DNA of 31,354 nucleotides from positions 1 to 31,354 of the IMG/VR virus record IMGVR_UViG_2802429225_000007; one strand, written 5' to 3'. Position numbers and translations under genes: made by a program. The stretch's first letter is position 1. Every line of letters begins with the position of its first letter. This document shows positions 3,205 through 23,175 of the stretch, one piece after another. This DNA is from a virus (lineage: Duplodnaviria; Heunggongvirae; Uroviricota; Caudoviricetes). The notes beneath the pieces are model-generated. The model saw only the letters and a program-made list of their open reading frames with translations, was not told the DNA's origin and did no database searches.

Positions 3205-3525
3205 TTAGTAGGGGATTTCAACGGTATCTGGCGTGTATTCGATGCAAAGTAACTGCTGGATTTTGTCATCGATAGCAGCAATACGCTGTTGGGCGTCGGC
3301 GGCTGTTTTCTGTTTTTGCTCACTCAGTTGCTCGACCTGTAAACCGATGATGTCGATTGGCTGAGGCTGGTTGACGGTAATTTCAATTTCGCGGCTTTCC
3401 AGAAGGATGTACCTGTCTGGAAAATTTTTTGACATATCAACAGTCGCAACAAGCAGCTTTTCGTGGCTGAAAGTTGAAGTTGCATAATGAATAAAGAGTG
3501 TTACTGGGATGGTGCGCGCTTCCAT
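3205..3525 (-). CDS. hypothetical early protein, first gene of leftward operon
   Basis: 106-aa ORF with AAGGAG RBS 7 nt upstream of ATG at 3525. Confidence 0.5.
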   Translation of the reverse strand: MEARTIPVTLFIHYATSTFSHEKLLVATVDMSKNFPDRYILLESREIEITVNQPQPIDIIGLQVEQLSEQKQKTAADAQQRIAAIDDKIQQLLCIEYTPDTVEIPY

Positions 3526-3679
3526 AGCGACTCCTTGGTGGGGTATACTCAGAACCGATCAGCGGCTCTGTCGTTGGTCTTTCCTCGGTGTAAGGTTGGT
3601 CCCTTGCACCATATCCGAATGGTTTGGTCGCCGTTCGGGGTAACTGGCCCGCCTTGTGCGGGTCTTTTGCCATCTAAAG

Positions 3680-3702
3680 GGTGCCGTCTTTCCGGCTGTC
3701 AG
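3680..3702. repeat. 23-bp direct repeat GGTGCCGTCTTTCCGGCTGTCAG, copy 1, in leftward leader
   Basis: exact 23/23 identity with 4132-4154. Confidence 0.7.
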
Positions 3703-4131
3703 GGCTGGTCATGCCCGGTCTTTCCTCGTTGCGCCTCTCTGCGAGAGGCTCTGGCTTTCACCAGAGGGTCCCAATAATTACGGTGTAGCGCCCGGAATCG
3801 AACCGGGTAACGGGCAGGGAGTTCCCGTCAAACACCTGTTCACCACAACCGGGAGCGCACTCCGCCATTTCAAAATTTAACGACAAAGCTCAAAGTTGAG
3901 TCGATGAAGTGCGCTCTCGTGTTGTCGCCAGGACTCTTCCCTGGTGGTCACACCGTATCGCCTTGATGGTGAATCAATCGCTCATACCTGGCTGTGGCTT
4001 GCACATTCCGGCTACCTGCTATGGAGACAACGCGTTAAGGCTCCGCTTCCATCCAGACCGCTTCGACACATGTGCCATATGCCGGTGAAGTCTTTCCCTC
4101 TGTCATCGTGTTGGCGCCGACGCGCAAAATT

Positions 4132-4352: not shown

Positions 4353-4781
4353 CTATTTTGTCTGGTTTTTGGCTTCAAGTAGTTCTTTTAGCAGTAGATC
4401 GAAGTGCTCTCTTTTTTCTTTTAGCTCATTGATTAATTTATTTTTTTCGCTCTCAGGCAGTCCTCTGAATAGTTGCAGTAGAGCCTGTTCTTGCGGGGTT
4501 AGTTCTTGATTGTAATTACCCGGGTGTAGCGTGGATTCATCCAAATATTCCCCTTCATTCATGAAGAAAAAATGAACAGGGTATCCGGTCACTTTTGCTA
4601 GTTTGTCTAATTTATCTTTTCTTGGAGTTACCCCATTACACCATGCCTGAACTGATTGAGCCGTAACCCCAATATGGCGAGCTAGCTCAGATTGAGACCA
4701 GCCTAAGTCTTTTAGAATCCGTTGTAGTCGGCTAGCAAAAGCCATGTTTTTCGTTTTTGTGTTCATACCGTAAGGATACAA
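4353..4781 (-). CDS. prophage immunity repressor, XRE-family HTH, no LexA/S24-like autocleavage domain
   Basis: 142 aa; N-terminal HTH (SQSELARHIGVTAQSVQAWCNG); divergent from cro-like gene; C-terminus short and coiled-coil-like, no Ala-Gly / Ser-Lys peptidase region. Confidence 0.7.
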   Translation of the reverse strand: MYPYGMNTKTKNMAFASRLQRILKDLGWSQSELARHIGVTAQSVQAWCNGVTPRKDKLDKLAKVTGYPVHFFFMNEGEYLDESTLHPGNYNQELTPQEQALLQLFRGLPESEKNKLINELKEKREHFDLLLKELLEAKNQTK

Positions 4782-9504: not shown

Positions 9505-9679
9505 GTGAAATTAATTATCAGGCACTTCGCAAATCGACAGAAATGACCAGCAAGATGAAAAATGAGTTAAAAATTTGTGGAACCACATTACTAGTGATAC
9601 AGACGCGCCATTATCCGTGATGGTGGATGAGCTGAAACGGGCGTGTGTTGCCGCTGGCATTCGTATCAAAGAAGAGTGA
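9501..9679 (+). pseudogene. small gene interrupted by a frameshift in an A5 run (9569-9573)
   Basis: ATG 9501 reads 39 codons to TGA 9618-9620; the -1 frame continues ...WNHITSDTDAPLSVMVDELKRACVAAGIRIKEE to 9679; adding one A fuses them into a 59-aa ORF. Confidence 0.35.
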
Positions 9680-9743
9680 GATGGTGATTTGGAATATCGG
9701 TAATTTTCATTGACGTGATTATAACCCTAGGTTACCATCCAAA

Positions 9744-9763
9744 TACTGTATATTTATACAGTA
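9744..9763 (+). promoter_or_regulatory. LexA (SOS) box overlapping the colicin-like gene promoter
   Basis: TACTGTATATTTATACAGTA, 19/20 to the CTGT-N8-ACAG consensus; candidate -35 TTGACG at 9710-9715 and -10 TACCAT at 9733-9738. Confidence 0.7.
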
Positions 9764-9820
9764 TTTGAAGAGGTGATTATCTAATATCTCTGGGAAATAA
9801 TTATTAAAAGGAAAGTTGAT

Positions 9821-10972
9821 ATGGCATGGACTGGATTTGGAGGTCAATGGAATAACGGTGTGCATTCTGGTGGTGATGATTCTGGCAGTATAGGCGGTGG
9901 AGGCATAAAACTCGACGGCAAAGGGAATCCTGTAGGTACTCGTGCGCCGACAGCCGAGGAGATCGCGTCACAATGGAATAGTTTTGGCGGTAGTCAGATT
10001 AAACCCAGTGATGTATCGAACATCAGGCCGGATGGTGGCGGTACTTATCAGGCTAACATTGCAGGTAATTACCATGTTGTAAGTTCTCAGGGTGCGAATA
10101 CCCCATTTGCTTCGGAACGTAGCAACGTTGCGGCAGGTTTTAGTGGCGGTGTGGGGCCAGCGCCTGGCGGGAGTGCTAACAATAGTGCGCCCAGCAATCC
10201 AAAGGCTGAGGCAGAGGCAAAGAAATGGATTGAAACAGTCAAGGCTGTTCGGGCTGGTAATATCCCCTACGGTTATGTTCTTAACGACGGCAAGGTAGGC
10301 GTAAACGTGCCTCAATATGTTGAACGCCGCAAAGGTCGTGGCGACACATATACCGTTCGGGGTAAAGATTTGTTTGTTGTTTCGCCTGAACTGACAAAAG
10401 CGTATCAGGACGGTCTTGCGGAACGTGCTGAGATTCTGGACGCCGTAAAATTTACGTCTGATTTCTATAAAGACCTTGCAGGTAAATTTGGACAGCATAA
10501 CGCGAACATCGCAAAGGAACTGGCGGAGGCTGCAAAAGGCAAGAAGATTCGTAACAGCAGGGATGCACTGGCGGCGGTGGATAAATTTAATAACCGACTG
10601 AGTAAAAAGTATGGTGCCAAAGACCTTGAGGCAGTTGCCAGGGCTTTGGAATCGGTTAACCGGGATGCAATGGCGAAGAATTTGTCTAAATTTGGTAAGG
10701 CATTTGGTGTCGCAAGTTATGCTGTAGATGCTTACAATGTTCTTTACGTTGAATTTCCGAAAGCTATTCGTACTAAAAACTATCGCCCAATGCTTGTTAA
10801 GTTGGAGGCAATTCTTCTTGGTGCTGATGCAGGTATTGTTGCTGCGTGGGCATTTAGTGCGCTTCTGGCAACGCCGATGGGTATTCTGACGTTTGCGCTT
10901 ATAATGGCATTGCTAAGTGCGATGGTTAATGAAAAACGCATTGAGGAACTGAATAAGTTCTTAGGGATTTAA
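9821..10972 (+). CDS. pore-forming colicin-like bacteriocin (channel-forming colicin C-terminal domain)
   Basis: Gly-rich N-terminus; C-terminal domain aligns by eye with colicin E1-type channel domain (AKGKKIRN, AIRTKNYRPMLVKLE, hydrophobic hairpin, ...KFLGI terminus); AAGGA RBS. Confidence 0.8.
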   Translation: MAWTGFGGQWNNGVHSGGDDSGSIGGGGIKLDGKGNPVGTRAPTAEEIASQWNSFGGSQIKPSDVSNIRPDGGGTYQANIAGNYHVVSSQGANTPFASERSNVAAGFSGGVGPAPGGSANNSAPSNPKAEAEAKKWIETVKAVRAGNIPYGYVLNDGKVGVNVPQYVERRKGRGDTYTVRGKDLFVVSPELTKAYQDGLAERAEILDAVKFTSDFYKDLAGKFGQHNANIAKELAEAAKGKKIRNSRDALAAVDKFNNRLSKKYGAKDLEAVARALESVNRDAMAKNLSKFGKAFGVASYAVDAYNVLYVEFPKAIRTKNYRPMLVKLEAILLGADAGIVAAWAFSALLATPMGILTFALIMALLSAMVNEKRIEELNKFLGI

Positions 10973-10999
10973 CCGTTATCAGTAGTAACCAGGGCCACG

Positions 11000-11344
11000 T
11001 CATGTGGCCTTTTTTGACAATTGAATATAAATAATAAACAGAAGGCCAATGGGAATTGAAAAAATAAAAAGCATACCGTGGTATAAACCCATTACCCCGC
11101 TTTTTAAACAGGTGTCTGTCCACGCCCCTGTTATCCATGATTCGTATGTTGTATATTTGAGAACGATATTTTCTACAGCTTTCTTTGCATATGGGAACAA
11201 GAAACAGCTAATAACAGCAAGCATAACCAAATACTCCCATATCCATAAATCACCTTCAGCTATGGCCTGATGCCACCTGAAAACTGTCATGGCGAGAAAT
11301 ACGCATCCGTACAGGATGTTGCTCAAATAATATCGAAATGTCAT
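11000..11344 (-). CDS. pore-forming-colicin immunity protein (E1/Ia-type), putative
   Basis: 114-aa protein with ~3 TM segments encoded convergently just downstream of the toxin gene, the canonical arrangement; AT-rich. Confidence 0.6.
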   Translation of the reverse strand: MTFRYYLSNILYGCVFLAMTVFRWHQAIAEGDLWIWEYLVMLAVISCFLFPYAKKAVENIVLKYTTYESWITGAWTDTCLKSGVMGLYHGMLFIFSIPIGLLFIIYIQLSKKAT

Positions 11345-11730
11345 CTATGTTCCTTAAGTGTAGAACTCGTCTAACTGTTTTAACCATCCAGAACTCTATG
11401 AATAACATAACATACCAGTCGTTACGAGAGTAAAAGAAAACAATTGGTGACGTTTCTGTATCCGAAATATATCAAATAATAGATATTAAGAATTGTTTCC
11501 TAATATCTATTTGAGGTGTTTATGGATAATATCTATGACGACGAATTGTTCGCAGGGTTTATTGCAAGAGGGGAGCTACATAGTGTTGAGTACCCACTGA
11601 ATGTAGAGAATGCGGACACAGGCTGTTTGAAGTTGATTGAATTGACTTAGAAAAAGCCCGGGGCTATAGTTTCCGCGCAGCCGCAAAATCGGTTGCCGGG
11701 ATTGGCGTCCCGGATATCTAAGTGACGCAT

Positions 11731-11751
11731 AGCCGCGTTAGCGGTTTTTTT
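11731..11751 (+). terminator. candidate intrinsic terminator
   Basis: short GC hairpin (GCCGC-gtta-GCGGT) followed by T7 run. Confidence 0.3.
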
Positions 11752-11912
11752 ATGTGTTAGGCACGGCCACATTCGCATTATGGTGGGCTGTGTGGGGGCT
11801 TCTGCGGAAGCGCCGGGTTCACTTAGCCGGTTACGCCAACCCTGCACAGTTCACCACCAGATGATTGGCGTCGCTGGTGGTGATGAAAAAAACACTAAGT
11901 GAGGCCACTGCG

Positions 11913-12701
11913 ATGACAGTCCAAATATCTGCGGAATCCCTTTCTCCGCTACATCATAACCAACTTCCCGTCATCACTACTGAATTGCTTGCCAGTTTGT
12001 ATGGCACGGAAGTAAATGGTATCCAGCAAAACTTCAAGCGCAACATCGCCAGATTTGTCGTAGGAAAGCATTTTTTTAAGCTGGAAGGTAATGAATTACG
12101 CGACTTCAAAAACAGACTGACAGATAGTCAGTCAGTTGCTAAACATACCCGATCCCTCATTCTCTGGACAGAACGCGGCGCAGCTCGCCATGCCAAAATG
12201 CTGGAAACAGAACAGGCCTGGGAAGTTTTCGAAAAGCTGGAAGATTGTTATTTTAGCCAGCGTCCAGAGAGGCGGAGTACAACCACCGATGACCGCACCC
12301 CCTTACGTGATGCCGTTAATATGCTGGTCGGCAAGAAAGGCATGATGTATCCCGATGCTTATACCATGATTCATCAACGCTTCGCCGTCTCTCACATAGA
12401 ACAACTGTCACAGGCGCAAATGTTAGAGGCGATTGAATACATCCACTGCCTGCTGCTCGATGAAAATCAGCCAACTATTCCGGATTTTTCTTTTATCACC
12501 ACTATCAAAAATGGAAAAGTGACCAGGATGCGCCATGTTGCCAAAGGCGAACATCTGATGACTTTTGACGCTTTCAAAGAGATCGCTGAGCGGGCAGGGT
12601 ATCTGGTGATCCACAGCGACAATCTGCGAAGTATGACACTGGATAAATTGATGCTAATGGGGAAAAAGTCGGCTGTATCCTTTGCTGATTCAGCATTTTG
12701 A
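11913..12701 (+). CDS. phage antirepressor (ORF6N-domain, Ant-like), putative
   Basis: GAGG RBS before ATG 11913 (track start 11865 is probably upstream of the true start); N-terminal region resembles antirepressor ORF6N domain. Confidence 0.5.
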   Translation: MTVQISAESLSPLHHNQLPVITTELLASLYGTEVNGIQQNFKRNIARFVVGKHFFKLEGNELRDFKNRLTDSQSVAKHTRSLILWTERGAARHAKMLETEQAWEVFEKLEDCYFSQRPERRSTTTDDRTPLRDAVNMLVGKKGMMYPDAYTMIHQRFAVSHIEQLSQAQMLEAIEYIHCLLLDENQPTIPDFSFITTIKNGKVTRMRHVAKGEHLMTFDAFKEIAERAGYLVIHSDNLRSMTLDKLMLMGKKSAVSFADSAF

Positions 12702-14948: not shown

Positions 14949-16184
14949 TCAGAATTTCCGTTCTTTCCAGCGTTTAACCAACGCGGCCATGTTCAGCGGC
15001 CATAATTTAGGCTCAATCACTTTGCCTTCAAACATCGCGCCGAGCTCAATACCTGGGGCAAAATGTACGGTCATTGTTTCAGGGTTGACGGCCATCAGCT
15101 CTGCGTCTAGTAAGTCGTGTATCGTTGGAGTCAACAACAGGCCATTATCAGCGCTAAAATTGCCTGAGGTAGCTGGCTCAATGTGCGCCGCTTGCAATCG
15201 TTCGCCGTTCTGCCAGCCAGTCACCGCGCAACGGCCAGCAAAATTATTCCATACCCATTCAACAAACTGCATATGCGCCGTCGCGTCGCGCTGCTCAACG
15301 ATGCGCTGCGCGGTTCGGGTACTGTGGAGTTTGACAGGTTGGCCAAGTGCGGGCGCGGGTTTCTCTTCCTCCACGACGACCACTACTTCCTGCGACATGA
15401 TGATTCGATCATCGGCTACCAGTTCCGGAACAACGTCGGCCAGCTTCTCGGCTTCTCGGATGATTTGCTTTTCTTCCTGCTCATCCAGGTACCGCTGCAC
15501 CAGTTCAATGGTCGTGGTGGCTTCATGCTGGTGTTTGTGGATATAAAGCTCAACATCACGACGCTGGCTGGCTGGAATGTGTTTTGCCAGAAAATCCTGT
15601 AGGACGCGATTATCCAGCTTTGTCGTAACTTTTGATGTCATGCTCACAGAATCATACCGTTTCGGTGTTTCCATCTGCGTTGATTGCAGGCCTGGTAATT
15701 CGGTGTTGATTTGAGCGGAAACCTTGCGCGGGATGATTGTCGGCGTAAATGCTGGCGTGCTGGCCTGGGACGTGCCACGGCGACGGGCATTCTCCCAAAG
15801 GGCTTCTGTTTCAGGGTTTTTGCGTGCGCCTGGCTTTTGCATAGGCATAGTGCGAATCAGCGCTTCCCAGCCCATATTGACCTTCTGTTTGGCCTCGCGG
15901 CGTTTATCGGCCAGCGTAGGTTTTGATGGTCGTTTTTTGGAGAGCGCTTTCTCTGGTTTTAACTTGATGCCGCGCGATAAACCATTTATCAGCGTTGGAT
16001 GCACTGATAAGGCTTTGGCCAATTGCAAACCGTTTAAATTGCTGCCATCTGTATAAGCGTACATAAACAAATCCGCCCAGCCATCATGTTGAGGGGTCAT
16101 ACCCACGCTGGTTAAGGCTGCGCGAATCTCTTTTTTGCGAGCTTTGTCCAAGTTAAATTTTTGGGTTTTATTTCGCTTAGTCAT
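14949..16184 (-). CDS. HNH-endonuclease-domain protein with basic N-terminal region
   Basis: C-terminal CAVTGW...AAHIEP...NGLLLTPTIHDLLD resembles an HNH nuclease motif; 411 aa. Confidence 0.55.
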   Translation of the reverse strand: MTKRNKTQKFNLDKARKKEIRAALTSVGMTPQHDGWADLFMYAYTDGSNLNGLQLAKALSVHPTLINGLSRGIKLKPEKALSKKRPSKPTLADKRREAKQKVNMGWEALIRTMPMQKPGARKNPETEALWENARRRGTSQASTPAFTPTIIPRKVSAQINTELPGLQSTQMETPKRYDSVSMTSKVTTKLDNRVLQDFLAKHIPASQRRDVELYIHKHQHEATTTIELVQRYLDEQEEKQIIREAEKLADVVPELVADDRIIMSQEVVVVVEEEKPAPALGQPVKLHSTRTAQRIVEQRDATAHMQFVEWVWNNFAGRCAVTGWQNGERLQAAHIEPATSGNFSADNGLLLTPTIHDLLDAELMAVNPETMTVHFAPGIELGAMFEGKVIEPKLWPLNMAALVKRWKERKF

Positions 16185-21449: not shown

Positions 21450-21528
21450 CTTCTTTTTTATAGACTTCACGATGTGAAAACGAATAATAAACTGTGCAAA
21501 TAATGCAGTTTTATTATTCGAGGTAATT

Positions 21529-22170
21529 ATGAAAACCTTCTATGAGGGCTGGCCTGAAACTTTCGTTAGCCGGTTAGATATGTTACGAGCTCTGGATGAT
21601 CGCGGCTCGACCCGGAGGCTCTATCTTGAGCGGACCGGGGCAATATTTGACGCTCTGGCAGAAGAGATACGTACAGCCGTTACCAGTCATCCTGAAATCG
21701 ACGCGAGTGAACTTGATATCGGGCCGCTGTATCGCTATTACAAACATGGTGGAAAGGGGAATCCGCTGGCTGACTTACTTATTGAGTTAGCTCCACCAAC
21801 CTGTGAACGGGTTCGTATATCTTCTGAAGTGTACACAATTCCGTATCTTTTTTTTGCACTGTTGATAGCGCAAGGCGCTGACAACGATGCCCGCGATTTT
21901 TTCAATATGATGATGCGATCGTTGATCATCGCCTACCGTTTCAAACAACTGGCGCGCTACCTTGGCACGAAGGGCGGAGGACGACCACAGCACAGATTAA
22001 AAAGCGAAGCCATTGAACTGGCTGATCGTTTTTTTACTGAAAACCCGACAGCGCCATTATCGCGTGGTGTGCAATACATATCCGGTATTTTTGTGGTGAA
22101 ATACTCTGACCCACCTGCAGCGTCGACGATTAGAAAATGGTTAATTTCAATTTACAGGAATGATAAATAA
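21529..22170 (+). CDS. hypothetical protein
   Basis: 213-aa ORF, backbone-like GC content, no recognised motif. Confidence 0.5.
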   Translation: MKTFYEGWPETFVSRLDMLRALDDRGSTRRLYLERTGAIFDALAEEIRTAVTSHPEIDASELDIGPLYRYYKHGGKGNPLADLLIELAPPTCERVRISSEVYTIPYLFFALLIAQGADNDARDFFNMMMRSLIIAYRFKQLARYLGTKGGGRPQHRLKSEAIELADRFFTENPTAPLSRGVQYISGIFVVKYSDPPAASTIRKWLISIYRNDK

Positions 22171-22281
22171 TGACCATAAACGGTTTAATCCCCTATAAAA
22201 CCGTTTAGTAAAATTCACGACGTGAATATAATTGTTCATTATTCCCTCATTGTATTTGGCGTTATGACAAATGCCATAAAA

Positions 22282-22301
22282 TACTGTATAAATGTACAGG
22301 T
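22282..22301 (+). promoter_or_regulatory. LexA (SOS) box-like operator upstream of a small ORF
   Basis: TACTGTATAAATGTACAGGT: CTGT-N8-ACAG core intact, ~16/20 to consensus; sits ~20 nt upstream of ATG 22322. Confidence 0.55.
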
Positions 22302-22321
22302 AATGGCGTTAGGGGGAAGAC

Positions 22322-22501
22322 ATGAATATTCAAGAATCTATAGGCGAACTACCGGAAACATGCCGGGCTGTTATCAAGCGTAAGGACGGACACATCGTTG
22401 GTGTGCGTGTTCTGACCGATGATGAACGGATTGCCAGCCTGATGGCGTTTCTCGAGTTGGCAGAAATAGCTGGATATACTATTACACCCCCTGACGCGTA
22501 A
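22322..22501 (+). CDS. small SOS-controlled protein, candidate antirepressor
   Basis: 59-aa ORF (MNIQESIGELPETCRAVIKRKDGHIVGVRVLTDDERIASLMAFLELAEIAGYTITPPDA) with GGGGGAAG RBS; below the track's 60-aa cutoff. Confidence 0.45.
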   Translation: MNIQESIGELPETCRAVIKRKDGHIVGVRVLTDDERIASLMAFLELAEIAGYTITPPDA

Positions 22502-22578
22502 AACACGGTATAATACTGGTGCTGGATTGAACACCCGGCACCATTTTCTGAACACTGCCGCGCCACCTGGAGTTAACC

Positions 22579-23175
22579 ATGGCGCAGCATTCATTTATCA
22601 GGGTATCCGGCGGTTCGCTAATACCCGCGACACCAGACACGCAACGCTGGTTGACTGAACGAGTCAAACCAGGTGCTGTTGTGTATGCAGATTTCAAACA
22701 GGCGCGTAATCCCGCGTTTCATCGTAAATTTTTCTCACTTCTCAACTTGGGCTTTGATTACTGGCATCCGTCCGGAGGGGCTATTTCTCCTGCGGAGCGC
22801 GAACTGGTTCACGGCTACGTTAAGTTACTGGCGTATTACGGTGGACACGGTGATGTCATGGCAGAGCTGGCTGATCAGTATCTTCTCGATGAGTCGGAAA
22901 AGCGCGCGGGGAATATCAGTGCGGTGAAGTCGTTCGAGGCGTTTCGCGCCTGGGCGATTATGGAAGCTGGGTTTTATGACGTTCATCAGATGCCAGATGG
23001 CAGTTTGATGCGCGTACCTCGTTCAATCTCGTTTGCTGCGATGGACGATCTTGAGTTCGGTCAACTGTATTCAGCCGTTTTAGATGTGCTGTGGAATTAT
23101 ATTTTGTTCCGCACGTTTGCCTCTCAGGAGGCCGCTGAAAATGCTGCCGCGCAGCTGCTGGATTACACATCATGA
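22579..23175 (+). CDS. conserved lambdoid nin-region protein (DUF-type), putative
   Basis: 198-aa ORF in the block preceding the Q-like gene; family from memory only. Confidence 0.45.
   Translation: MAQHSFIRVSGGSLIPATPDTQRWLTERVKPGAVVYADFKQARNPAFHRKFFSLLNLGFDYWHPSGGAISPAERELVHGYVKLLAYYGGHGDVMAELADQYLLDESEKRAGNISAVKSFEAFRAWAIMEAGFYDVHQMPDGSLMRVPRSISFAAMDDLEFGQLYSAVLDVLWNYILFRTFASQEAAENAAAQLLDYTS

What the first reader, a model, noticed from the sequence alone, without database searches (positions are those of the whole stretch)
22282..22501. LexA box directly upstream of a 59-aa ORF: candidate SOS-controlled antirepressor
Seen: TACTGTATAAATGTACAGGT (CTGT-N8-ACAG) at 22282-22301, followed by a GGGGGAAG RBS and a 59-aa ORF missing from the track. 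The immunity repressor at 4353-4781 has no recognisable autocleavage domain. Established: prophages with non-cleavable repressors are often induced through small LexA-repressed antirepressors (Gifsy-type, 186 Tum-type). Inference: this small protein may link the SOS response to induction.
Basis: partly seen in the sequence, partly recalled or inferred. Interest (0 to 1): 0.65.

Follow-up and report, generated by a model that had tools for sequence, protein, structure and literature searches.

The report
SOS-controlled small prophage antirepressor gene
A LexA-binding site sits on the promoter of a 59-residue gene related to the small Salmonella Gifsy/Fels-1 and E. coli Rem antirepressors, so this is most likely the ordinary, already described way a prophage with a non-cleavable repressor senses DNA damage.

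Summary
TACTGTATAAATGTACAGGT lies at 22282-22301, followed by GGGGGAAG and a 59-codon ORF at 22322-22501.

- The 59-aa protein matches phrog_340 (E 1.6e-20). So do Fels-1 FsoA and E. coli Rem, both tested antirepressors, and the closest available relative of Gifsy-1 GfoA.
- It occupies the slot that gftA/gfoA occupy in Gifsy-type phages, directly upstream of the DUF1367 (irsA) gene and Q.
- The resident repressor is a short HTH protein with no S24 domain. It is about 33% identical over its length to Gifsy-2 GtgR and to DicA.
- A CTGT-N8-ACAG box lies within 300 nt upstream of the gene in 8 of 13 independent lineages. The background rate is about 0.009 per 300 nt. The surrounding sequence is otherwise unrelated.
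- The box overlaps a -10 hexamer. The -35, the -10 and the box are conserved while the 5'-UTR varies.

It is not related to 186 Tum. It is a new, uncharacterised member of a known kind, present in about 8% of complete E. coli genomes and annotated there as hypothetical.

Side findings: a second phrog_340 domain in an IsrK/C4-controlled ORF6N antirepressor, and a LexA-boxed colicin module.

The parts
22177..22207 (+). A/T-rich palindrome (TAAACGGTTTA...TAAACCGTTTA) between the upstream 213-aa ORF and the promoter. It may be a weak terminator or insulator.
   Evidence: Inverted repeat I1. The fold of 22165-22260 has z = -2.4. Lemire 2011 report terminator-like palindromes ahead of the Gifsy LexA boxes.
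22264..22269 (+). Putative -35 hexamer ATGACA (5 of 6)
   Evidence: Read from the sequence. It is conserved in the P0006 and P0008 lineages while the spacer diverges. The tool's scan did not flag this promoter, because the -10 ends in A.
22287..22292 (+). Putative -10 hexamer TATAAA (5 of 6), 17 nt after the -35 and inside the LexA box
   Evidence: A box overlapping the -10 is also the geometry of phage 186 p95.
22282..22301 (.). LexA (SOS) box TACTGTATAAATGTACAGGT
   Evidence: It is conserved in E. coli relatives. Equivalent boxes lie upstream of distant homologues, with enrichment P about 6e-14.
22312..22319 (+). Ribosome-binding site GGGGGAAG
   Evidence: The GGGGGA core is conserved in the P0006, P0008 and P0017 lineages.
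22322..22501 (+). 59-aa ORF: predicted GfoA/FsoA/Rem-family (phrog_340) small antirepressor
   Evidence: phrog_340 at E 1.6e-20. 38 relatives among 1.8 billion representative proteins. The family profile hits FsoA at 1.4e-15, GfoA-like proteins at about 1e-8 and Rem at 2.5e-7. AF2 model pLDDT 90, helix-hairpin-helix. Against the P0006 lineage, 17 codons differ synonymously and 14 non-synonymously.
22517..22549 (+). Terminator-like hairpin (9-bp stem, 9-nt loop) followed by TTTTCT, just after the stop codon
   Evidence: The stem appears in both the minimum-energy and centroid structures, but the whole-region z-score is only -0.9, so this is tentative. Phage 186 has a partial terminator, t95a, after tum.
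22579..23175 (+). DUF1367 (IrsA/NinB-like) gene, the synteny marker immediately downstream
   Evidence: PF07105 at 2e-78. It is homologous to Gifsy-2 STM1020/irsA. The same neighbour follows the small ORF in most lineages.
4353..4745 (-). Presumed target: a short (130 aa from the ATG) HTH immunity repressor of the GtgR/GfoR/DicA non-cleavable class
   Evidence: Only HTH families in Pfam, no S24 domain. 33% identity to Gifsy-2 GtgR (E 6e-23) and 32% to DicA (E 1e-17), both over the full length. It shares the C-terminal LPExEK...FxELL module with repressors of other loci that carry a LexA-boxed family member.
11865..12701 (+). Second antirepressor candidate in the same prophage: an ORF6N-domain protein whose residues 211-254 are a phrog_340 module
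   Evidence: PF10543 at 1e-21. phrog_4792 'anti-repressor' at 2e-162, and phrog_340 at 3.3e-12 on residues 213-254. A2 profile at 4.7e-10 on residues 211-252. It is preceded by isrK (11677-11751) and C4 RNA (11776-11861).

Best explanation
This is a compact SOS-controlled transcription unit: promoter with LexA box, a 59-aa gene, and a terminator-like hairpin. The gene encodes a GfoA/FsoA/Rem-family small antirepressor.

Proposed mechanism:
1. In the lysogen, LexA bound at 22282-22301 covers the -10 hexamer and the predicted start site, and keeps the gene silent.
2. DNA damage activates RecA, LexA cleaves itself, and the 59-aa protein is made.
3. The protein binds the prophage's short, non-cleavable HTH repressor (4353-4745, GtgR/DicA class) and takes it off its operators without degrading it.
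4. The early operons are derepressed and the prophage is induced.

Shown here: the sequence features, family membership, synteny, the class of the repressor, and recurrence of LexA boxes across the family.

Inferred: LexA binding, promoter activity, and that the resident repressor is the target.
For: (1) Family.
- The ORF hits phrog_340 at 1.6e-20.
- The same PHROG is hit by E. coli Rem at 4.4e-21. Rem derepresses DicA-controlled dicBp 165-fold (PMC10448788).
- It is hit by Fels-1 FsoA at 1.1e-26. I fixed the FsoA sequence from primers le154 and le162 of Lemire 2011 Table S1. FsoA inactivates GtgR (PMC3121763).
- It is hit by mEp237 gp49 and SEN34_55 at 1.4e-20. These nearly match the GfoA ends given by primers le163 and le117.
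- A profile of the ORF's own relatives (A2) finds FsoA at 1.4e-15, GfoA-like proteins at about 1e-8 and Rem at 2.5e-7. hhalign of A2 against Rem gives probability 93%.
- Precomputed Pfam PF27490 'Rem' hits are on record for homologues P0016, P0012, P0017, P0009 and P0013.

(2) Synteny.
- Gifsy-2, SEN34 and mEp237 read: LexA box, dinI, small antirepressor, DUF1367/irsA, then Q.
- The window reads: LexA box, 59-aa ORF, DUF1367, YbcO, Q.

(3) Repressor class.

(4) LexA box.
- 8 of 13 independent homologue lineages carry CTGT-N8-ACAG within 300 nt upstream. Background is 3 sites in 98.7 kb of the same loci, giving binomial P about 6e-14.
- A ninth lineage (P0013) has a CTGG variant box.
- The boxes sit 17-169 nt upstream in mutually unalignable DNA.
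- The -35, the -10 and the box are conserved in E. coli variants while the 5'-UTR changes.

(5) Real protein: AF2 pLDDT 90, and the RBS is conserved.
Against: - There is no experimental evidence for this element.
- Pairwise BLASTP of the ORF against Rem finds nothing. The link rests on profile methods.
- GftA, the Gifsy-2 antirepressor in the exact syntenic slot, is not significantly similar: phrog_340 E 0.23, hhalign probability 4.5%.
- Family membership does not fix the target. FsoA has no apparent role in inducing its own phage and acts on a foreign repressor. Rem has no LexA box. Three other candidates, YpjJ, YeeT and YkfH, did not act on DicA.
- The same prophage encodes an ORF6N antirepressor carrying the same module, which could be the cognate inducer.
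- The promoter scan did not flag the -35/-10 pair I propose.
- Four homologue lineages lack a box.
Confidence: 0.7

Rival explanations
1. The 59-aa protein is an SOS-induced antirepressor, but its main target is the repressor of another prophage (crosstalk, as with FsoA). The resident repressor is relieved by the IsrK/C4-controlled ORF6N antirepressor at 11865-12701.
For: - FsoA acts on the heterologous GtgR and is dispensable for Fels-1 induction; GfoA and GfhA cross-react (PMC3121763).
- The window has a second phrog_340 module fused to an ORF6N domain, placed behind isrK/C4 RNAs.
- A related prophage (L001) carries a third copy, unannotated.
Against: - The ORF6N gene has no LexA box. The best site near it matches 12 of 20 and lies inside the ORF. 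It therefore gives no SOS input by itself.
- The LexA-boxed small gene travels with GtgR/DicA-class repressors in each locus where both are visible: window/L001, L014 and L023.
- In Gifsy phages the gene in this slot is the cognate inducer.
Confidence: 0.15
2. The LexA-controlled promoter mainly serves the downstream DUF1367-YbcO-Q genes, giving SOS-driven late-gene or recombination functions. The small ORF is a leader or accessory peptide.
For: - The box is upstream of the whole nin-like block ending in Q.
- The hairpin after the ORF is only moderately convincing: the region's z-score is -0.9 and the U-tract is short.
- In L014 the small gene is followed directly by Q.
Against: - In Gifsy-2, gftA alone is sufficient to induce.
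- The small protein is a conserved, confidently folded family with tested antirepressor members.
- A stem-loop plus TTTTCT follows the stop codon, as t95a follows tum in phage 186.
Confidence: 0.06
3. The box is a non-functional or fortuitous palindrome. The ORF is expressed only by read-through from pR after derepression by some other route.
For: - The site matches only 16 of 20 positions.
- A/T-rich promoter regions generate TATA-like palindromes.
- The tool's promoter scan did not call a promoter here.
Against: - Enrichment of boxes upstream of independent homologues, P about 6e-14.
- The majority E. coli variant is closer to consensus, at 17 of 20, while the flanking UTR drifts.
- The P0006 lineage has a 19 of 20 box at the same position.
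Confidence: 0.04
4. It is an SOS-induced small protein with another role, for example a RecA/DinI-like modulator, a toxin or a superinfection-exclusion factor.
For: - Gifsy-type loci place dinI behind the same LexA box.
- PHROG, the local Pfam copy and NCBIfam give the family no function.
Against: - No match to DinI or any Pfam family.
- No similarity to Tum, whose C-terminus is DinI-like.
- There is no hydrophobic segment typical of SOS toxins in the sequence.
- Positive homology to three antirepressors.
Confidence: 0.05

Closest known systems
Gifsy-1/Gifsy-3 antirepressors GfoA/GfhA of Salmonella (Lemire, Figueroa-Bossi & Bossi 2011, PMC3121763), with near-identical genes in phages mEp237 (gp49) and SEN34 (gene 55)
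   Same: - Same profile family, phrog_340.
- Same C-terminal motif, GY-x-[VI]-TPP-x-D.
- Same slot immediately upstream of DUF1367/irsA and Q.
- LexA-boxed promoter.
- Partner repressor of the short non-cleavable class.
   Different: - About 31% identity only.
- 59 aa against about 80, with no N-terminal extension.
- No dinI gene between the box and the antirepressor, so the box is 20 nt from the start codon.
- ATG start rather than a non-canonical one.
- Host is E. coli, and the phage has a contractile tail.
FsoA of Salmonella phage Fels-1 (78 aa)
   Same: It is the strongest hit of the ORF's own family profile among tested proteins: 1.4e-15, 36% identity. It is a small single-domain antirepressor that acts on a GtgR-class repressor.
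   Different: FsoA sits in the left operon under a cleavable CI-like repressor, has no LexA box, and is not needed to induce its own phage.
Rem of the E. coli K-12 Qin cryptic prophage (83 aa; Ragunathan & Vanderpool 2023, PMC10448788); Pfam PF27490
   Same: Same PHROG. hhalign probability 93% over the beta-hairpin plus helix core. It antagonises DicA, which is 32% identical to the window's repressor. It also lies in the nin region upstream of Q.
   Different: Rem appears to contain a partial duplication of the hairpin (two profile stretches). It has no LexA box upstream, and its inducing signal is unknown.
Tum of coliphage 186 (p95-LexA-tum-t95a); N15 AntC by analogy
   Same: Same circuit logic and promoter geometry: the LexA box overlaps the -10, lies about 20 nt ahead of the start codon, and a partial terminator follows the gene.
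   Different: No sequence relationship: hhalign probability 0.4%. Tum is 146 aa with a DinI-like C-terminus, and its target is the 186 CI repressor. N15 AntC was not tested here.
GftA of Gifsy-2 (73 aa, phrog_4847)
   Same: Exactly the same genomic slot and the same LexA-controlled operon logic.
   Different: Not detectably homologous by the tests run: phrog_340 E 0.23, hhalign probability 4.5%. Lemire et al. report some conserved residues shared with GfoA and FsoA.

Membership tests
GfoA/FsoA/Rem small antirepressors (phrog_340; Pfam PF27490 Rem) | Significant match to the family profile over the beta-hairpin plus helix core | tested here: met
   phrog_340 at E 1.6e-20 over residues 1-58. FsoA, Rem and GfoA-like proteins hit the same PHROG at 1e-26 to 1e-20. 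The reciprocal A2 profile hits them too. The local Pfam copy lacks PF27490; only precomputed hits on homologues were seen.
GfoA/FsoA/Rem small antirepressors (phrog_340; Pfam PF27490 Rem) | Small (about 55-85 aa) stand-alone protein | tested here: met
   59 aa. Relatives are mostly 55-66 aa.
GfoA/FsoA/Rem small antirepressors (phrog_340; Pfam PF27490 Rem) | Partner repressor is a short HTH protein without an S24 autocleavage domain (GfoR/GtgR/DicA class) | tested here: met
GfoA/FsoA/Rem small antirepressors (phrog_340; Pfam PF27490 Rem) | Binds the repressor and releases it from DNA without proteolysis | not testable with these tools
   Needs pull-down, EMSA or reporter assays.
Gifsy-type SOS induction module (LexA-controlled antirepressor operon) | LexA box on the promoter of the antirepressor transcription unit | tested here: met
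   Met at sequence level only. Box at 22282-22301 overlapping the -10. It recurs across lineages. LexA binding itself was not tested.
Gifsy-type SOS induction module (LexA-controlled antirepressor operon) | Position between the replication genes and the irsA (DUF1367)-Q block, away from the immunity region | tested here: met
Gifsy-type SOS induction module (LexA-controlled antirepressor operon) | A dinI homologue as first gene of the operon | tested here: not met
   There is no ORF between the box and the 59-aa gene, only 20 nt, and the ORF has no DinI match. This is a variant layout; the feature is not essential to the mechanism.
186 Tum / DinI-like antirepressors | Sequence homology to Tum | tested here: not met
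   hhalign of A2 against Tum: probability 0.4%, E 0.15.
GftA family (phrog_4847) | Sequence homology to GftA | tested here: not met
   hhalign probability 4.5%. GftA hits phrog_340 only at E 0.23.
Large Ant-type antirepressors (ORF6N / Bro-N / KilAC) | N-terminal ORF6N, Bro-N or KilA-N domain | tested here: not met
   No Pfam domain in the 59-aa protein. It matches only the C-terminal module of the window's ORF6N protein.

The most novel reading that the evidence does not exclude
The roughly 45-residue phrog_340 core (beta-hairpin plus helix ending in AGY) may be a portable repressor-binding module that this prophage uses twice under different inputs. One copy stands alone behind a LexA box and reports DNA damage. 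The other is fused to an ORF6N domain behind an IsrK/C4 antisense-RNA switch and reports a second, SOS-independent signal. Both would converge on the conserved C-terminal LPExEK...FxELL module of the GtgR/DicA-class repressor, making a two-input induction switch. The same module also occurs in satellite-like islands with no LexA box (L013, L024), which could use it to sense or hijack helper-phage repressors.
Probability: 0.25. Interest if true: 0.55.

Novelty: new member of a known kind. Interest (0 to 1): 0.35.

Why it matters
This fills an annotation gap rather than revealing a new mechanism. WP_001025459.1 and phrog_340 are labelled 'hypothetical' or 'unknown function', yet the family contains three tested antirepressors. 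The gene is present in about 8% of complete E. coli genomes, many of them from human clinical isolates.

If confirmed, it gives the SOS trigger for a widespread E. coli prophage with a non-cleavable repressor. That bears on induction by DNA-damaging antibiotics, and on cross-induction between co-resident prophages.

Lemire et al. (2011) already predicted that such systems are common in E. coli, so a specialist would not be surprised.

Tried and rejected
- Pairwise BLASTP of the ORF against Rem: no alignment. Profiles were needed.
- Local Pfam-A and NCBIfam: no family for the ORF, Rem, FsoA, GftA or the GfoA-like protein.
- PDB sequence search with the family profile: nothing below E 0.7.
- Foldseek against BFVD: no match at E <= 0.001; the best was an uncharacterised phage protein at E 0.05.
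- AFDB50 library: unavailable.
I used 12 exact-protein context look-ups instead.
- Exact GfoA primer in IMG/VR: no hit. Close GfoA relatives came from the phage collection and from two Citrobacter genomes.
- Tum homology: rejected.
- GftA homology: not supported.
- A LexA box upstream of rem in K-12: none.
- A LexA box for the ORF6N antirepressor: none.
- The tool's sigma-70 scan did not call the promoter I propose, because its rule requires T at -10 position 6. The assignment rests on reading the sequence and on conservation.
- No heterology index was computed for the box. The published matrix was not at hand and I did not want to rebuild it from memory.

Full report
OBSERVATION

- TACTGTATAAATGTACAGGT lies at 22282-22301.
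- GGGGGAAG lies at 22312-22319.
- An ATG ORF of 59 codons runs 22322..22501 on the + strand.

The box matches the 20-nt E. coli LexA consensus at 16 of 20 positions, with both CTGT and ACAG cores intact. CTGT-N8-ACAG occurs three times in the window against 0.46 expected from shuffles. The other two sites are:
- a 19 of 20 box at 9744-9763, ahead of a colicin gene;
- an intragenic site at 15322 that looks fortuitous.

Reading the sequence, ATGACA (22264-22269), a 17-nt spacer and TATAAA (22287-22292) form a 10 of 12 sigma-70 promoter. Its -10 lies inside the box, so bound LexA would cover both the -10 and the predicted start site. The tool's promoter scan did not flag this pair, because it requires T at the last -10 position. 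The assignment therefore rests on conservation. In the P0006 and P0008 lineages the -35, the -10, the box and the GGGGGA Shine-Dalgarno are kept while the spacer and UTR diverge. In the variant carried by about 388 complete E. coli genomes the box is TACTGTATAAATATACAGGT, 17 of 20, and four substitutions fall in the UTR just after it.

A 9-bp stem-loop followed by TTTTCT comes right after the stop codon, at 22517-22549. An A/T-rich palindrome precedes the promoter, at 22177-22207. Both are tentative.

WHAT THE WINDOW IS

It is a lambdoid-type E. coli prophage segment. In order it carries an exonuclease, an immunity region (HTH repressor, YdaS-like Cro, YdaT-like CII), RepO/DnaB, accessory genes, a nin-like block (DUF1367, YbcO, Q), lysis genes and terminase.

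The 431-bp region around the finding occurs in 445 of 5,426 complete E. coli genomes. It is always chromosomal, and the ORF is annotated there as hypothetical protein WP_001025459.1. One phage record, vB_EcoM-705R4, has it at 97% identity.

WHAT THE 59-aa PROTEIN IS

The local Pfam-A copy and NCBIfam give nothing. PHROGs places it in phrog_340, 'unknown function', at E 1.6e-20.

A profile search of 1.8 billion representative proteins found 38 relatives, mostly 55-66 aa. They share the pattern LP-x-x-GR-[VI]-V...NG...S-x-R-x-L-x-x-[DE]-E-H-I-A-[ST]-L-x-x-F-x-E-L-A-x-x-AGY-x-[IV]. AlphaFold2 with this alignment gives a confident model, pLDDT 90, of helix, beta-hairpin, helix. No solved or viral predicted structure resembles it.

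The link to function comes from three experimentally tested proteins.

- Rem. This E. coli K-12 Qin protein relieves DicA repression 165-fold (PMC10448788). It hits phrog_340 at 4.4e-21. It aligns to the ORF's family profile at hhalign probability 93% and HMMER E 2.5e-7.
- FsoA. Lemire et al. 2011 (PMC3121763) mapped this Fels-1 gene between STM0896 and STM0897. Their primers le154 (ATGAACTCACAGCAAATGATGA) and le162 (...EAGIRFEEISNVG, fused to FLAG) identify it as the 78-aa ORF at Fels-1 3494-3730. That ORF is the best hit of the family profile, at 1.4e-15, and hits phrog_340 at 1.1e-26.
- GfoA. The ends given by primers le117 and le163 are MSNSALQK... and ...RRLGYRVTPPSDI. They are nearly matched by mEp237 gp49, by SEN34 gene 55 and by two Citrobacter prophages. 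These proteins hit the family profile at about 1e-8 and phrog_340 at 1.4e-20. Their C-terminus, GYRVTPPSD, mirrors the window's GYTITPPDA.

Precomputed Pfam hits to PF27490 'Rem' are on record for several of the ORF's homologues.

Two proteins do not fit. GftA of Gifsy-2 is not significantly similar. Tum of phage 186 is unrelated.

CONTEXT

Gifsy-2 reads: terminator, LexA box (TACTGTGTTTATATACAGTG), dinI, gftA, irsA, then NinG and Q. Its IrsA protein is a clear homologue of the window's DUF1367 protein. SEN34 and mEp237 read: LexA box, dinI, gfoA-like gene, NinB/DUF1367, then Q.

The window reads: LexA box, 59-aa ORF, DUF1367, YbcO, Q. It is the same slot without dinI, so the box lies 20 nt from the start codon.

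The resident repressor hits only HTH families. It is 33% identical to Gifsy-2 GtgR (E 6e-23) and 32% identical to DicA (E 1e-17), both over the full length. It shares the C-terminal LPExEK...FxELL module with the short repressors of two other loci that carry a LexA-boxed family member, L014 and L023.

COMPARATIVE TEST OF THE BOX

I fetched the genomic context of 12 homologues that are 34-76% identical to the ORF.

Boxes upstream of each lineage:

| Lineage | Box | Match to consensus | Distance from start |
|---|---|---|---|
| window | TACTGTATAAATGTACAGGT | 16/20 | 20 nt |
| P0006 | TACTGTATATATATACAGTG | 19/20 | 18 nt |
| P0008 | TACTGTATAAATATACAGTT | 18/20 | 20 nt |
| P0009 | TGCTGTATATAATTACAGTA | 17/20 | 75 nt |
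| P0012 | TACTGTGTTTATATACAGTA | 18/20 | 102 nt |
| P0016 | TACTGTAGATTTGTACAGTA | 17/20 | 19 nt |
| P0017 | TACTGTATTTTCATACAGTG | 16/20 | 17 nt |
| P0018 | ACCTGTATTAAAGTACAGCT | 12/20, cores intact | 49 nt |
| P0013 | TACTGGTTGGATATACAGTA | 16/20, CTGG variant | 169 nt |

The surrounding intergenic DNA of most of these lineages cannot be aligned with the window's.

Four lineages have no box. P0010 sits on a 2-kb contig next to HTH genes. P0011 has unknown host. P0014 and P0019 lie in AlpA/Bro-N/DUF4222/DUF927 satellite-like islands.

Taking strict CTGT-N8-ACAG only, 8 of 13 lineages have a site within 300 nt upstream. Background in the same loci is 3 sites in 98.7 kb, or 0.009 per 300 nt. 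The binomial P is about 6e-14.

Most of the boxed lineages have the small gene directly upstream of DUF1367. In L014 it is followed directly by Q.

MECHANISM

This is the Gifsy-type induction circuit. LexA represses a small antirepressor gene. SOS relieves that repression. The antirepressor binds a non-cleavable repressor stoichiometrically and removes it from its operators (mechanism as shown for GfoA and GftA in PMC3121763).

For this element, the following are shown: sequence, family, synteny, repressor class and box recurrence. LexA binding, promoter activity and the identity of the target are inferred. I put 0.7 on this reading.

The main rival, at 0.15, is that the protein is a crosstalk antirepressor and that the resident repressor is relieved by a second antirepressor. 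That second candidate is the ORF6N protein at 11865-12701. It matches phrog_4792 'anti-repressor' at 2e-162, and its residues 211-254 are another phrog_340 module. It sits behind isrK and C4 antisense RNA matches, the arrangement described for Gifsy-1 IsrK-AnrP (PMC4825925). It has no LexA box, so it cannot supply the SOS input on its own.

Lesser rivals are that the promoter mainly serves the downstream nin/Q genes, that the box is fortuitous, or that the protein has some other SOS function. These are listed with their evidence in the rivals section.

COMPARISON AND NOVELTY

In circuit logic the element also resembles 186 p95-LexA-tum-t95a: the box overlaps the -10, lies about 20 nt before the start codon, and is followed by a partial terminator. 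It is not a Tum homologue.

It is a member of the GfoA/FsoA/Rem family in a trimmed layout without dinI. Lemire et al. already noted that gfoR/gtgR homologues occur in most E. coli genomes and predicted that antirepressor-mediated induction is widespread. The finding is therefore a new, uncharacterised member of a known kind.

Its practical value is annotation: phrog_340 and WP_001025459.1 can be read as small antirepressors. It also gives a clear experimental handle on induction of a common E. coli prophage.

Interest 0.35.

Noticed in passing
window 9744-11344 (module about 9510-11597): A 19 of 20 LexA box (TACTGTATATTTATACAGTA, 9744-9763) precedes a 383-aa ORF (9821..10972) with a colicin pore-forming domain closest to colicin Ib (PDB hit E 2e-51). 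A colicin E1-type immunity gene lies on the opposite strand (11000..11344). The module replaces about 360 bp of the related prophage L001. It has no megablast match in 5,426 complete E. coli genomes and no tblastn match in 50,697 phage records. Plasmid colicins match at most about 54% identity, mainly over the pore domain, and none covers 80% of the protein, so the N-terminal part looks new. No lysis gene was seen; release by phage lysis is a plausible guess.
   Followed up: partly
window 11664-12701: Rfam matches to isrK (11677-11751, 80 bits), C4 antisense RNA (11776-11861, 74.5 bits) and the c4 a1/b1 targets (11664-11716) lie directly upstream of an ORF6N-domain 'anti-repressor' (11865..12701). 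Residues 211-254 of that protein are a second phrog_340 (Rem-like) module. This is a P1 immI / Gifsy-1 IsrK-AnrP-type RNA-controlled antirepressor in the same prophage as the LexA-controlled one.
   Followed up: partly
window 21466-21478 and 22214-22226: A 13-bp palindrome, TTCACGATGTGAA and TTCACGACGTGAA, occurs twice. Each copy lies in the spacer of a promoter-like element, one ahead of the 213-aa ORF 21529..22170 and one 55 nt upstream of the LexA-box promoter, next to a perfect TATAAT at 22227-22232. It is conserved in L001 and L020 but not in more distant lineages. It may be an operator for an unknown regulator, or a second promoter for the 59-aa gene. It remains unexplained.
   Followed up: partly
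L001 9272-9493 (E. coli CFSAN061769 prophage): An unannotated 73-aa ORF (MFGDKLELPRNGRIVLYISDYKV...) hits phrog_340 at 3.5e-21. It lies in exactly the segment that the colicin module replaces in the window. No LexA box was found upstream. Related prophages can therefore carry three Rem-like modules.
   Followed up: partly
L013 4001-4189; L024 and L025 3001-3198: Family members P0014 and P0019 sit in islands with an integrase, AlpA, Bro-N, DUF4222 and a DUF927 primase. These look like phage satellites. The genes overlap the preceding ORF and have no LexA box. This suggests satellites also use this antirepressor module.
   Followed up: no
window 22546-22578: A 33-nt stretch between the 59-aa ORF and the DUF1367 start (TTCTGAACACTGCCGCGCCACCTGGAGTTAACC) matches at 100% a sequence annotated as CRISPR in E. 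coli strain 48 from deer faeces (NZ_CP166879.1). This is probably a spacer acquired against this phage lineage.
   Followed up: no
proteins P0034 (120 aa) and P0035 (240 aa): Some relatives contain two copies of the phrog_340 module in one polypeptide. Rem itself shows a partial N-terminal repeat of the hairpin. The module therefore duplicates and fuses readily.
   Followed up: no
window 15322-15337: The third CTGT-N8-ACAG site (CTGTGGAGTTTGACAG) lies inside overlapping ORFs (14949..16184 on the - strand, an HNH-type protein in the relative). It has a G/C-rich spacer and is probably fortuitous.
   Followed up: no
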